64,000 nucleotides of DNA from an uncultured bacterium (GTDB lineage Bacteria; Patescibacteriota; Patescibacteriia; CAIQCM01): positions 971,042 through 1,035,041 of the forward strand of contig OY970181.1 of the NCBI GenBank assembly GCA_963708045.1, in the 5' to 3' direction. The number at the start of each line of letters is the position of its first letter. Position 1 is the stretch's first letter. Positions 58,204 through 60,717 of this stretch are shown here, in pieces. Position numbers and translations under genes: made by a program. The notes under the pieces were generated by a model. The model was not told the origin of the DNA. It did no database searches and saw nothing but the letters and a program-made list of their open reading frames with translations.

Positions 58204-60717
58204 TTATTTGATAATCCTAACCACGCCATTATCCGCGTCAACCTCCACAAGGTCGCCATTTTTAAGGACACTGGTTGCGTTTTTGGTACCGACAATGCAC
58301 GGTTTTTTTAGTTCGCGGGCAATTATGGCGGCGTGAGAAATTATACCACCTTCGTCCGTCACAAAAGCTGCCGCAAGCCGCATCGCTGGCGTGTAGTCCG
58401 GCATTGTCGTGATGGCGACCAAAATATCGCCTTCTTTTACCTTTGAAAGATCATTTTTACTTTGAACAATTACAACGCGACCAACCGCCTTGCCGGTAAA
58501 AGCAACTTTGCCAGCAATATTTATATTTTTTAATTCATTCTGACCGATAATCGCTTTAACTTTTTCAATTTTTTCCTTGTCGTAAAAAATATGCGAACCG
58601 TCATTTTCAAAATAATAAACATACTGACCAGAAATCCTTTGTTTAATTTCGCCAAGATCGGGCACTAATCCATTTTTCACAAAATCAACCAATTCCTTGT
58701 TTAAACAATTTGCAACCATCACCATTGTCCAGCTGTCCCCTGTTTTTTTAGATAACGCTTGCGCGATTTCGTAAAAAATTTTCCTAATACTTGTTTGCGT
58801 TTTTTTAAAACAATCCATCCGTTCTGCGCGAAGAAAACTATACGTAAAAAGAACTTCAGCAACTAATTTAAGTTCTTTGTTTTTAAACTTTTTTCTTAGC
58901 AAAGAATAAGCAAGTTTATTGCGTTTAACCTCTTCCAAAATTTGAGTTTTTTCCTTTTTCGCATCTTTGACGTTCAGTTTATTAGCTTCGTTAATAAAAT
59001 ATTTTTCGTCTAATAGCGGTTCAACGTATGAATATTCGCTATACCAAGCGTAACCATCAACAAGTTTTTTTAGTATTTTTTTATCCTTTTTACCGCTTAT
59101 TACAAAGTCATCAATTTTTATCCTCATTTTTTGAAAATCATTAAGCCGCGAAGGAGATGAAATAATCGCAAAAGCGCTAGCTGCGGCCGACGCTCCAAAT
59201 TCCTCAGAAAGAAGCTTTTGGCAATAAGGGTCTAATTTTTGTTCTATTACTGTTGGGGCGATTAAAAATTTGCCGAAATTTTTTGCAATCTCAAGCCATT
59301 GAAGATAAATTGACAAATTTTTTTTCAAATTATTTTTTGCCGCGCGGTTTGCTAATTTTACAATCTTGGACATTTCAACGATCCCAAAATTATATTCTTG
59401 CAGATGTTTTTTCCATCCGGCAAAAGTTGATAATTCATTAATGATTTTTTCGTGGCTACATTTAGTTCCAGCGTCATCAACATACATCGTTCTGCTTAAA
59501 CCATCCAAAGGTATGGTGACGCAAACGCCTTTATATACCGACCAAGCAAGTCCGCTTAATTCGTCCTTTTGTACGGCCATTGGCCGAGTAACAAATTTTT
59601 TTAGATTAGCAAAAAATTTTGGAATATCGTTTTTATCCGTATCATTATTTTTCTTCGTAACTCCAGCTTCGTAACGTCCTAAATAATTACTTTCCAAAAT
59701 TCGGACTACACCATTATCCACGTCCACTTCAACCAGATCGCCGTCGTTAAGAATTTGCGTGGCGATTTTCGTGCCGACAATGCAAGGGATCTTGAGTTCG
59801 CGGCAGGCGATGGCCGCGTGACAGGTCATACCACCTTCGTCTGTAACAACCGCGGCGGCGATTTTCATAATCGGCAGATATTCGGGATTAGTCATTTCGG
59901 TGACCACAACCTCGCCCGCCTTAAAATCTTTCATGTCAGCAAATGACAATATCTTTTTTACTTTGCCCGTAACAATACCTTTGTAAGCGATCCGTCCCTT
60001 AATTTCACCGTTCGCTTCTACCGACTGTTTTTCCAGGGCAAGATTATTTTTTAAAAGCAGGTCGTCTAACTCGCGAAGAGGGTAAATTTTTTCATTAAGC
60101 ATAACGCAACCAGCGACCCGTGCGCGGAACTTTGAAACAAATTCTTTCTTTTCTATATCAGAAAAATCTTTTACTTCACTAGGCGCAATGCAAAAAGAAA
60201 ACTCTTTTAGATCGGGGTAGCGGCGATCCCAAAATTCCGTGAGCAGCCGGCTCATTTTTTCGGTATATTTTTCCGAGGCGGCGCGATATTTAAGAATAAG
60301 CGCACGAACCTCGTCGGAAACTTCTTTAATATCCGGAACGGTAAAGACCGTGGTCATAGCCGACCACCAATCAACTAACCATTCATAATATTCGTGGAAT
60401 TCTTTAACCGTGACGATCTTTTTGTCGTGAATAAGATATGGCGCTAAATTTTTCCAATTACTATCCAGCGTCTTAACAACCAATGCCACAAAAGACGAAT
60501 CTTCGGTTAATTTATTTTTTAGCAACACATCAACTTCCGCCAATTCTTCCGGCGGATACCAAACAGAACCTTTGCGTCCAGGCGGCGGCACAATAAAAAG
60601 ATTATTTTTCACGTCATAATCCAAAAAGTTCTTCCACCCACGTCGGTCGCTGTCGTTCCATAGCAAAAAATACAGCAAGGGCTTTTCGCGCGAAAAAGTT
60701 TTTGCGAGTGTAATCAT
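58204..60717 (-). CDS. array paralog A8: a double-unit fusion (837 aa) with two swivel domains
   Basis: The internal domain ...GEVVVTEMTNPEYLPIMKIAAAVVTDEGGMTCHAAIACRELKIPCIVGTKIATQILNDGDLVEVDVDNGVVRILE lies at about aa 255-345. The C-terminal one is ...GDILVAITTMPDYTPAMRLAAAFVTDEGGIISHAAIIARELKKPCIVGTKNATSVLKNGDLVEVDADNGVVRIIK. Confidence 0.8.
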   Translation of the reverse strand: MITLAKTFSREKPLLYFLLWNDSDRRGWKNFLDYDVKNNLFIVPPPGRKGSVWYPPEELAEVDVLLKNKLTEDSSFVALVVKTLDSNWKNLAPYLIHDKKIVTVKEFHEYYEWLVDWWSAMTTVFTVPDIKEVSDEVRALILKYRAASEKYTEKMSRLLTEFWDRRYPDLKEFSFCIAPSEVKDFSDIEKKEFVSKFRARVAGCVMLNEKIYPLRELDDLLLKNNLALEKQSVEANGEIKGRIAYKGIVTGKVKKILSFADMKDFKAGEVVVTEMTNPEYLPIMKIAAAVVTDEGGMTCHAAIACRELKIPCIVGTKIATQILNDGDLVEVDVDNGVVRILESNYLGRYEAGVTKKNNDTDKNDIPKFFANLKKFVTRPMAVQKDELSGLAWSVYKGVCVTIPLDGLSRTMYVDDAGTKCSHEKIINELSTFAGWKKHLQEYNFGIVEMSKIVKLANRAAKNNLKKNLSIYLQWLEIAKNFGKFLIAPTVIEQKLDPYCQKLLSEEFGASAAASAFAIISSPSRLNDFQKMRIKIDDFVISGKKDKKILKKLVDGYAWYSEYSYVEPLLDEKYFINEANKLNVKDAKKEKTQILEEVKRNKLAYSLLRKKFKNKELKLVAEVLFTYSFLRAERMDCFKKTQTSIRKIFYEIAQALSKKTGDSWTMVMVANCLNKELVDFVKNGLVPDLGEIKQRISGQYVYYFENDGSHIFYDKEKIEKVKAIIGQNELKNINIAGKVAFTGKAVGRVVIVQSKNDLSKVKEGDILVAITTMPDYTPAMRLAAAFVTDEGGIISHAAIIARELKKPCIVGTKNATSVLKNGDLVEVDADNGVVRIIK

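What the first reader, a model, noticed from the sequence alone, without database searches (positions are those of the whole stretch)
58204..60717. One array gene is a head-to-tail fusion of two units (two swivel domains in one 837-aa protein)
A8 carries a complete swivel domain in its middle (MTCHAAIACRELKIPCIVGTKIATQILNDGDLVEVDVDNGVVRILE, ending near aa 345) and a second at its C-terminus (IISHAAIIARELKKPCIVGTKNATSVLKNGDLVEVDADNGVVRIIK). The first half is the size of the short units A7 and A9 (340 aa). The 3' ends of all array genes share high nucleotide identity over about 250 nt. A fusion is therefore most simply explained by loss of a stop or intergenic region, or by unequal recombination between neighbouring units. 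Either the array is actively recombining or a sequencing error removed a stop codon.
Basis: seen in the sequence. Interest (0 to 1): 0.55.

Follow-up and report, generated by a model that had tools for sequence, protein, structure and literature searches.

The report
Natural fusion of two phosphotransfer modules
One gene in a Patescibacteria operon of eleven rifampin-phosphotransferase-like modules is most likely an evolved fusion of two different modules, a layout that recurs in this enzyme family, rather than a sequencing slip or a sign of ongoing recombination.

Summary
The 837-aa ORF (58204..60717, minus strand) does contain two complete PF00391 phosphohistidine swivel domains. Its first 343 aa match the 339- and 343-aa short units. 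Residues 361-837 match stand-alone 472-477-aa orthologues in other genomes. A 17-aa AT-rich linker joins the two parts.

High-confidence models of both halves hit rifampin phosphotransferase best. Each half is therefore a substrate-binding domain plus a His carrier, like the HpeH/PpsA/CreH subunit of two-component small-molecule dikinases. No ATP-grasp partner lies in the 64-kb window.

Each A8 swivel is closer to its orthologues elsewhere (about 64-76%) than to any array paralogue (63% or less). I found no sign of recent recombination.

In two other genomes the orthologue of the second half is a separate gene directly behind a short-unit gene, so origin by fusion of neighbouring genes is supported. 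A sequencing error is unlikely. A second assembly of a public run gives the identical protein across the junction, and no start codon remains for a separate second gene. About 16% of family representatives carry two to six swivels.

Verdict: real, an uncharacterised variant of a known family, moderate interest.

The parts
58204..60717 (-). A8: 837-aa ORF encoding two tandem modules, each a substrate-binding domain followed by a phosphohistidine swivel domain. The public gene call starts at TTG codon 32 and gives 806 aa.
   Evidence: Homology to P0002 starts at residue 2 and the model has a confident strand at residues 2-10, which favour the ATG at 60717.
60013..60717 (-). Module 1 substrate-binding domain (aa 1-235), short-unit type.
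   Evidence: 52-56% identical to domains that sit after an ATP-grasp in about 660-aa proteins (P0010, P0013) and in P0002. Model pLDDT 93, best PDB match RPH-Lm.
59689..60012 (-). Module 1 swivel domain (aa 236-343). Catalytic His300 is at 59818-59820, in the motif GGMTCHAAI.
   Evidence: H300 invariant. 67-76% identical to orthologue swivels, 60% or less to array paralogues.
59638..59688 (-). Linker, aa 344-360 (NYLGRYEAGVTKKNNDT). It has no counterpart in either unit. GC 0.33, GC3 0.24. Codon 360 is ACG, where a stand-alone second gene would have its ATG.
58534..59637 (-). Module 2 substrate-binding domain (aa 361-728), long-unit type, similar to the rifampin-binding domain of RPH.
   Evidence: 39-40% identical to the stand-alone protein P0121. 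Model pLDDT 90.7. Foldseek 5hv2 E 1e-14; 5fbu TM 0.55. The profile aligns to RPH residues 662-878.
58207..58533 (-). Module 2 swivel domain (aa 729-837). Catalytic His795 is at 58333-58335, in the motif GGIISHAAI.
   Evidence: (H435 of the alignment = His795)
47850..63285 (-). The operon that holds A8. It has 10 swivel genes (11 modules), a methyltransferase (52903-53601) and an HD-motif protein (55097-55678). Gene spacings are -4 to +18 nt. A DivIC-like gene lies upstream. No ATP-grasp gene is present.

Best explanation
A8 is a real, evolved gene fusion. Two formerly separate neighbouring genes of a tightly packed operon now form one polypeptide with two complete but different modules. Each gene encoded a small-molecule-binding domain followed by a phosphohistidine swivel domain. 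This is the arrangement of the HpeH/PpsA/CreH subunit of two-component dikinases, and of the C-terminal two-thirds of rifampin phosphotransferase (RPH).

Inferred mechanism, by analogy with RPH and HpeHI: an ATP-grasp partner, encoded outside this window, loads phosphate from ATP onto His300 and His795. Each swivel then turns to its own substrate-binding domain and phosphorylates a bound small molecule. The fusion adds no new chemistry. It fixes the two modules at a 1:1 ratio and probably brings both to the same ATP-grasp partner.

The likely origin is loss of the first gene's stop, read-through of a spacer of about 50 nt, and loss of the second gene's ATG (now ACG). The event is not recent, and the array is not undergoing concerted evolution.

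Shown: the architecture, the fold assignment, the split orthologues, the lack of recombination signal and the reproducibility of the ORF. Inferred: the partner, the substrates, the activity of both modules and the order of the mutations.
For: Architecture and fold:
- Two PF00391 domains are present, both with the intact GGxxxHAAI motif.
- Both halves keep every invariant residue of their orthologue alignments.
- The models are confident (pLDDT 93.1 and 90.7). RPH-Lm is the best PDB match for both: E 5e-11 with TM 0.37-0.38, and E 1e-14 (5hv2) with TM up to 0.55 (5fbu).
- The profile aligns to RPH residues 662-878, including the catalytic YRE block.
- HpeH has been described as the rifampin-binding plus swivel part of RPH working with a separate ATP-grasp subunit (PMC12167813; PMC4844700).

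Split state elsewhere:
- L003 has 341-aa and 477-aa genes. L006 has 338-aa and 472-aa genes, and a stand-alone 315-aa PPDK_N gene in the same array.

Fusion recurs in the family:
- 98 of the 120 best hits to A8 have two or three swivels, but this search was biased by its two-swivel query.
- In an unbiased census using only the module 1 binding domain as query, 19 of 117 complete representatives (16%) have two to six swivels.
- The module 2 type is also fused behind another swivel in P0050 and L013.

Not an artefact:
- The identical 806-aa product is found on a second assembly.
- No start codon lies between codon 342 and Met380.
- Starting at Met380 would remove the first strand of module 2.

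Not recent:
- Nucleotide identity between units is 54-75%.
- The A8 swivels are 54% identical to each other but 64-76% identical to most orthologue swivels.
- GC3 is 0.46 in the first half and 0.33 in the second.
Against: - No close relative (above 62% identity) carrying this particular pair of modules was found, so conservation of this exact fusion is untested.
- P0002 has the module 1 orthologue followed by a different long unit.
- In L003 the upstream short unit is closest to g57174, not to A8 module 1, and in L006 its similarity to A8 module 1 is weak (21%). The split pairs are therefore analogous in gene order rather than strictly orthologous for the first half.
- The two assemblies may rest on the same reads, so a systematic read error is not formally excluded.
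- One extra A in GAAAG (59690-59694) would restore ...RILEK-stop (my reading).
- No ATP-grasp gene lies in the 64 kb, so the proposed phosphate donor is not demonstrated for this genome.
- The two-swivel architecture without ATP-grasp is rare: 4 of 117 representatives.
Confidence: 0.75

Rival explanations
1. Assembly or sequencing artefact. The true genome has two genes, and a one-base error at the junction (for example A4 read as A3 at 59690-59694) removed the stop.
For: Adding one A to GAAAG gives ...VVRILEK-TAA, a C-terminus typical of the family (my reading; tails). Orthologues of the second half are usually separate genes.
Against: The identical 806 residues spanning the junction are called on a separately assembled Logan contig of ERR12035931 and on the 1.19-Mb contig. 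With a stop restored, the second gene would have no ATG, GTG or TTG before Met380, which lies after the first beta-strand of the module and 19 residues after the start of the stand-alone orthologue P0036. All other array genes are intact. The resulting spacer of about 46 nt would exceed every spacer in the array, which range from -4 to +18 nt.
Confidence: 0.07
2. A recent product of unequal homologous recombination or gene conversion in an actively recombining tandem array.
For: Eleven paralogous modules lie in tandem and share a conserved domain of about 108 aa at their 3' ends. A 39-nt identical run exists between g51837 and g53604. An internally deleted unit remnant lies at 19169-19417.
Against: Swivel-region nucleotide identity is only 54-75%. 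The longest exact run involving A8 is 18 nt. The A8 swivels are closer to orthologues in other genomes than to any array paralogue. The substrate-binding domains of the halves are about 30% identical or less to their neighbours. Crossing-over between swivel regions would not remove a stop codon. The junction lies outside the shared region, in unique linker sequence.
Confidence: 0.03
3. A neutral or decaying read-through. The fusion exists in the genome, but one module is non-functional or misfolded, and the gene is on its way to becoming a pseudogene.
For: This exact module pair was not found elsewhere. The module 2 motif is GGIISHAAI, lacking the usual Thr before the Ser/Cys-His. Unit remnants exist in the genome.
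Against: Both halves keep all invariant residues of their orthologue alignments and fold with pLDDT above 90. The linker is hydrophilic. It is somewhat longer than the two fused relatives whose linkers I could measure (about 8 aa in P0001, 13-14 aa in P0003). The position before the His also varies among intact units of the array. Multi-swivel proteins are frequent and reach six swivels, which argues that tandem modules are tolerated and probably useful.
Confidence: 0.12

Closest known systems
HpeH / CreH / PpsA, the substrate-binding plus swivel subunit of two-component small-molecule dikinases (HpeHI, CreHI, phenylphosphate synthase PpsAB)
   Same: Same domain order: a binding domain like the rifampin-binding domain of RPH, followed by a C-terminal phosphohistidine swivel with the GGxT[S/C]HAAI motif, and no ATP-grasp in the same chain (PMC12167813). 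Related arrays carry a stand-alone ATP-grasp gene of about 315 aa, like HpeI (L006, L011).
   Different: A8 carries two such subunits in one chain. The characterised members I am aware of have one swivel. No ATP-grasp gene lies next to or within the array here. The binding domains show no sequence similarity to the phenol or acetovanillone enzymes detectable with my searches. The host is a Patescibacteria genome with eleven modules. Substrates are unknown.
Rifampin phosphotransferase (RPH-Lm; PDB 5FBU, 5HV1, 5HV2)
   Same: It is the best structural match of both halves. The profile alignment covers RPH 662-878, including the Arg-Glu catalytic block and the swivel (PMC4844700). Orthologues of module 1 in other genomes are fused to an N-terminal ATP-grasp, which gives the full three-domain order of RPH (P0010, P0013).
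   Different: The ATP-grasp domain is missing. Module 1 has a much smaller binding domain, about 235 aa against 428 aa (TM 0.37). All NCBIfam RPH models score far below their cut-offs, for example 109 bits against 999. This gives no basis for calling it a rifampin-resistance enzyme.
PEP synthase / pyruvate phosphate dikinase / PTS enzyme I
   Same: They share the swivel phosphohistidine domain PF00391. PEP synthase gives the strongest sequence hits (8a8e, 9dae).
   Different: The PEP/pyruvate-binding TIM-barrel domain (PF02896) and the ATP-grasp are absent. Similarity is confined to the swivel plus about 100 residues in front of it.
Prodigiosin ligases PigC / RedH / HapC
   Same: They belong to the same superfamily. 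The NCBIfam models hit both swivels.
   Different: Scores are far below the cut-offs (135-150 bits against 1300-1350). The ATP-grasp is absent. There is no pigment gene context.

Membership tests
RPH-like / two-component small-molecule dikinases (HpeH, PpsA, CreH type) | C-terminal phosphohistidine swivel domain with the GGxT[S/C]HAAI[V/I][A/S]R motif | tested here: met
   Two PF00391 stretches. Motifs are GGMTCHAAIACR and GGIISHAAIIAR. The second has Ile in place of Thr. The His is invariant in the alignments.
RPH-like / two-component small-molecule dikinases (HpeH, PpsA, CreH type) | A substrate-binding domain with the fold of the RPH rifampin-binding domain, directly N-terminal to the swivel | tested here: met
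RPH-like / two-component small-molecule dikinases (HpeH, PpsA, CreH type) | A cognate ATP-grasp (PPDK_N, PF01326) domain in the same chain or in an adjacent gene | tested here: not met
   There is no PPDK_N signal anywhere in the 64-kb window, by tblastn or by six-frame HMM search with filters off (best E = 3). Four of nine related metagenomic loci, and L006, have one inside the array. The rest of the 1.19-Mb genome could not be read.
RPH-like / two-component small-molecule dikinases (HpeH, PpsA, CreH type) | Catalytic Arg-Glu (and Lys) block in the apex subdomain of the binding domain | tested here: inconclusive
   The invariant LR(T/A)(D/E)R motif of module 2 types (R630, R633) aligns with the RPH 'YRE' block in the profile alignment, but the register is uncertain by a few residues. 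Module 1 types have an invariant R145 in LxYRxxSEKYTEKM. No structural superposition was possible.
RPH-like / two-component small-molecule dikinases (HpeH, PpsA, CreH type) | ATP-dependent phosphorylation of a small-molecule hydroxyl group through a phospho-His intermediate | not testable with these tools
   This needs biochemistry.
Rifamycin-inactivating phosphotransferase (NCBIfam NF041857, NF000283) | Whole-protein score above the curated cut-off | tested here: not met
   109 bits against a cut-off of 999, and 85 bits against 1700. Only the swivel regions match.
PEP synthase (TIGR01418, NF005057) | Three-domain enzyme with ATP-grasp, swivel and a PEP/pyruvate-binding C-terminal domain, scoring above the cut-off | tested here: not met
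   239 bits against a cut-off of 598, and 214 bits against 740. Matches are limited to model positions of about 347-461, the swivel. Pfam finds no PF01326 or PF02896.

The most novel reading that the evidence does not exclude
Multi-swivel proteins and arrays of this kind in Patescibacteria and DPANN could form a multiplexed kinase battery. In it, one ATP-grasp unit, encoded in the same chain, in the array or elsewhere, would charge several different His-carrier modules. Each module would then phosphorylate a different host- or environment-derived small molecule, either to trap it in the cell or to inactivate it. On this reading A8 is a two-substrate cassette, and tandem fusion is the way these reduced genomes wire several specificities to one energy-coupling domain. 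A further possibility would be His-to-His phosphate relay between the two swivels of one chain.
Probability: 0.25. Interest if true: 0.6.

Novelty: new variant of a known kind. Interest (0 to 1): 0.35.

Why it matters
The characterised members of the RPH/HpeH/PpsA/PigC dikinase family that I know of carry one phosphohistidine swivel. Here one chain carries two complete, different substrate modules. Relatives carry up to six swivels in proteins of up to 2,648 aa. This shows that the family evolves by shuffling whole modules, each a binding domain plus a His carrier.

For annotation, such genes should not be labelled 'PEP synthase', flagged as frameshifted, or split. The public gene call also starts 31 codons too late.

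For biology, a genome of about 1.2 Mb spends about 15 kb on eleven such modules without a local ATP-grasp. That points to an unstudied small-molecule phosphorylation capacity in ultra-small symbionts. The fusion itself is an ordinary evolutionary event and needs no new mechanism.

Tried and rejected
Searches that found nothing or could not run:
- Scanning GTDB species genomes with A8 found no relative.
- Scanning JGI metagenomes with A8 found no relative. A second scan with an alignment of the module 2 binding domain gave nine useful loci.
- A8 itself is not in the protein collection, because the public call starts at TTG codon 32.
- The 90% cluster of that 806-aa protein is represented by an unrelated 49-aa peptide (P0382, on a contig with F-box and LRR genes). 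This hid the self hit and yielded no close relatives.
- The profile-profile comparison of A3 with A1 matched columns belonging to extra units of multi-unit rows and was uninformative.
- Literature searches found no description of swivel-module arrays or multi-swivel proteins in CPR or DPANN. The only related item was a count of rph-like resistance hits in CPR genomes (PMC8651080).

Ideas rejected:
- The halves as recent copies of neighbouring units: identity is about 30%.
- Programmed read-through or frameshifting: there is no stop in frame.
- Internal initiation giving a separate second product: there is no canonical start codon before Met380.

Weak lead:
- All seven gene-terminal swivels that have Arg in the VVR tail use AGA or AGG, against 33% AGR overall. 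The internal A8 swivel uses CGA. This could reflect a lost ribosome-binding role, but the spacing to the start codons is long and n = 1, so I give it little weight.
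Full report
**What is there**

On the minus strand, from 63285 down to 47850, lies one tightly packed operon with gene spacings of -4 to +18 nt. It holds ten genes that end in a PF00391 'PEP-utilising enzyme mobile domain'. A small methyltransferase gene (52903-53601) and an HD-motif gene (55097-55678) are embedded in it. A DivIC-like gene lies upstream.

The gene at 58204..60717 (A8, 837 aa) is the only one with two swivel domains, at about aa 236-343 and 730-837. 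The operon therefore has eleven modules. A UvrA gene of the window is 100% identical to a protein on a 1,188,223-bp public contig. Its named relatives are Patescibacteria.

**Check of the observation**

The two swivel domains, their positions and the size argument hold.
- Residues 1-343 align end to end with the short units g57174 (339 aa) and g60719 (343 aa) at about 30% identity.
- The remaining 494 residues are the size of the long units, 467-512 aa.
- Both catalytic motifs are intact: GGMTCHAAI with His300, and GGIISHAAI with His795.

The statement that the 3' ends share high nucleotide identity does not hold.
- On a codon alignment of the last 250 nt, pairwise identity is 54-75%, mean 65%.
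- The longest exact run shared by an A8 half with any other unit is 18 nt.

**What the modules are**

AlphaFold models of residues 1-343 and 361-837 are confident, with pLDDT 93.1 and 90.7. They share one topology: a small sheet, a helical body, two strands, then the swivel.
- For both models the best PDB match is rifampin phosphotransferase RPH-Lm. Module 1 gives E 5e-11 and TM 0.37-0.38. Module 2 gives E 1e-14 (5hv2) and TM up to 0.55 (5fbu, about 560 columns).
- A profile of module 2 relatives aligns to RPH residues 662-878. That stretch covers the end of the rifampin-binding domain, including its catalytic Arg-Glu block, and the swivel (domain limits from PMC4844700).
- A binding domain of the RPH rifampin-binding type followed by a His swivel, with no ATP-grasp in the chain, is the composition reported for HpeH. 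HpeH works with the separate ATP-grasp protein HpeI, and CreHI and PpsAB are built the same way (PMC12167813).
- All curated NCBIfam models (PEP synthase, RPH, PigC/RedH) score far below their cut-offs and match only around the swivels.
- No PPDK_N ATP-grasp is encoded anywhere in the 64 kb (tblastn; six-frame HMM with filters off).

**The junction**

The first swivel ends ...GVVRILE(342). Other units stop one to four codons after the corresponding position.
- Stand-alone orthologues of the second half begin exactly where A8 reads D361: P0036 starts MKNDFPRFF..., and A8 reads DKNDIPKFF....
- The 17 residues in between (NYLGRYEAGVTKKNNDT, 59638-59688) belong to neither unit. They are hydrophilic, and their DNA is AT-rich (GC 0.33, GC3 0.24).
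- There is no ATG, GTG or TTG between codon 342 and Met380. Codon 360 is ACG, one transition away from ATG.
- Adding one A to GAAAG at 59690-59694 would give ...RILEK-TAA. This is my reading.
- A simple path is therefore loss of the stop (a one-base deletion or a substitution), read-through of a spacer of about 46-50 nt, and loss of the now useless start codon. The order of these steps is inference.

**Comparative evidence**

The orthologue of the second half is a separate gene placed directly behind a short-unit gene in two other genomes.
- L003 (GCA_964647565.1) has a 341-aa gene and the 477-aa gene for P0121, overlapping by ATGA.
- L006 has a 338-aa gene and the 472-aa gene for P0027, with a 10-nt gap. 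The same array also holds a stand-alone 315-aa ATP-grasp gene.
- In L003 the short unit is closest to g57174. In L006 its similarity to A8 module 1 is weak (21%). The gene order is conserved, but the first partner is not strictly orthologous.

Nine metagenomic loci with the module 2 type show several arrangements.
- In five loci it is a separate gene (L008, L009, L010, L012, L015). In L011 the match is cut off by the contig end.
- In L016 it is fused to an ATP-grasp.
- In L014 it sits at the N-terminus of an 812-aa ORF that has only one swivel.
- In L013 it is fused behind another swivel, inside an ORF of at least 2,124 aa with four swivels.

Orthologues of module 1 are 57-62% identical to it. 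They sit either directly after an ATP-grasp (P0010, P0013; about 660 aa) or after another unit (P0003, P0001). P0002 (1,154 aa) is an ATP-grasp, then the module 1 orthologue, then a different long unit.

**How common fusions are**

Of the 120 best hits to A8, 98 have two or three swivels, but a two-swivel query favours such proteins. I therefore ran an exhaustive search of 1.84 billion representatives using only the module 1 binding domain, with no swivel in the query. It gave 173 hits at E <= 1e-3. The 117 complete-looking representatives break down as follows:

| Architecture | Count |
|---|---|
| Single module, no ATP-grasp | 87 |
| ATP-grasp plus one module | 11 |
| Two swivels, no ATP-grasp (the A8 layout) | 4 |
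| ATP-grasp plus two to six swivels | 15 |

In total, 19 of 117 (16%) have two or more swivels.

**Against ongoing recombination**

- Each A8 swivel is more similar to the swivels of its own orthologues in other genomes than to any swivel in the same array. For module 1 the figures are 67-76% against 60% or less. For module 2 they are 64-73% for most orthologues against 63% or less. The two A8 swivels are 54% identical to each other.
- The halves sit at opposite ends of the array's composition range: GC3 is 0.46 in the first and 0.33 in the second.
- Crossing-over between swivel regions would make hybrid, duplicated or deleted units. It would not remove a stop codon.

**Against a sequencing error**

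- The exact 806-residue product (TTG start at codon 32, junction included) is recorded both on the 1.19-Mb contig and on a 7,159-bp contig from an independent Logan assembly of run ERR12035931.
- Restoring a stop would leave the second unit without a canonical start before Met380. Met380 lies behind the first beta-strand of the module (strand 12-19 of the model) and 19 residues behind the start of the stand-alone orthologue P0036.
- Both halves keep all invariant residues of their families.
- I cannot see the reads, so a systematic read error is not formally excluded. I give it about 7%.

**Mechanism**

What follows rests on the chemistry established for RPH and HpeHI, not on any test here. 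An ATP-grasp partner pyrophosphorylates the swivel His, and the terminal phosphate is released. The swivel then rotates onto its own binding domain and transfers the remaining phosphate to a bound small-molecule hydroxyl group.

A8 would do this twice, with two unrelated binding pockets, in one chain. The donor protein is not in the window. HpeH alone can shuttle phosphate between a phosphorylated product and a substrate (PMC12167813), which is a fallback activity if no ATP-grasp exists in the genome. Substrates are unknown.

**Verdict**

Origin by fusion of neighbouring genes is supported. Active recombination and sequencing error are not. A8 is an uncharacterised tandem two-module variant of a known enzyme family. 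The operon around it is more interesting than the fusion itself.

Noticed in passing
window 19169-19417 (-): An 83-codon open frame ends with the last 24 residues of a swivel domain (TKVLHDGDIVEVDANRGIVTILK-stop; HMM E 1.6e-7). It is preceded by a stretch resembling the segment just before a swivel. It looks like an internally deleted remnant of a twelfth unit, 28 kb from the array.
   Followed up: partly
window 47850-63285 and the whole window: Eleven HpeH-like modules are present, but no ATP-grasp (PPDK_N) gene lies anywhere in the 64 kb. Related arrays often carry one at their 5' end, either stand-alone (L006, L011) or fused (L010, L013, L016). The phosphate donor for this array is unknown.
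   Followed up: partly
window 55097-55678 (-) and 52903-53601 (-): An HD-motif protein (no Pfam hit at E < 0.001) and an MTS/HemK-like methyltransferase are embedded between the modules. Relatives have a HAD hydrolase (L003, L004) or an FGase gene (L006) in comparable positions. This hints that a phosphohydrolase may belong to the system.
   Followed up: no
window 60625-60717 (-): The public gene call for A8 starts at TTG codon 32 (806 aa). Homology to P0002 from residue 2 and a confident beta-strand at residues 2-10 support the ATG at 60717, one base after the stop of the preceding gene.
   Followed up: yes
L013 20-6391; L002 21924 onwards; proteins P0301 and P0243: Giant relatives exist. L013 has an ORF of at least 2,124 aa with four swivels followed by an ATP-grasp. 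L002 has a 1,994-aa protein. P0301 is 2,648 aa with six swivels and P0243 is 1,832 aa with five. Some family members are also fused to a UDP-GlcNAc 2-epimerase domain (PF02350) or an aconitase-X swivel domain (PF01989).
   Followed up: no
proteins P0011, P0242, P0244, P0248 (about 570 aa); L014 3954-6389: In some relatives two substrate-binding domains lie in tandem but share a single C-terminal swivel. This is a different kind of fusion from A8.
   Followed up: no
C-terminal codons of the array genes, e.g. 57183-57185, 58213-58215, 59701-59703: The Arg in the conserved ...G(V/I)VR(I/V)... tail is AGA or AGG in all seven gene-terminal swivels that have Arg there, against 33% AGR among all Arg codons of the array. 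It is CGA in the internal A8 swivel (59701-59703). This may be a translational-coupling signal that the fused junction no longer needs, or it may be chance.
   Followed up: partly
protein collection, cluster of the 806-aa A8 product: The 90%-identity cluster holding the A8 product is represented by an unrelated 49-aa peptide (P0382) from a contig with F-box and LRR genes. This is a clustering artefact, and it hides the protein from homology searches.
   Followed up: yes
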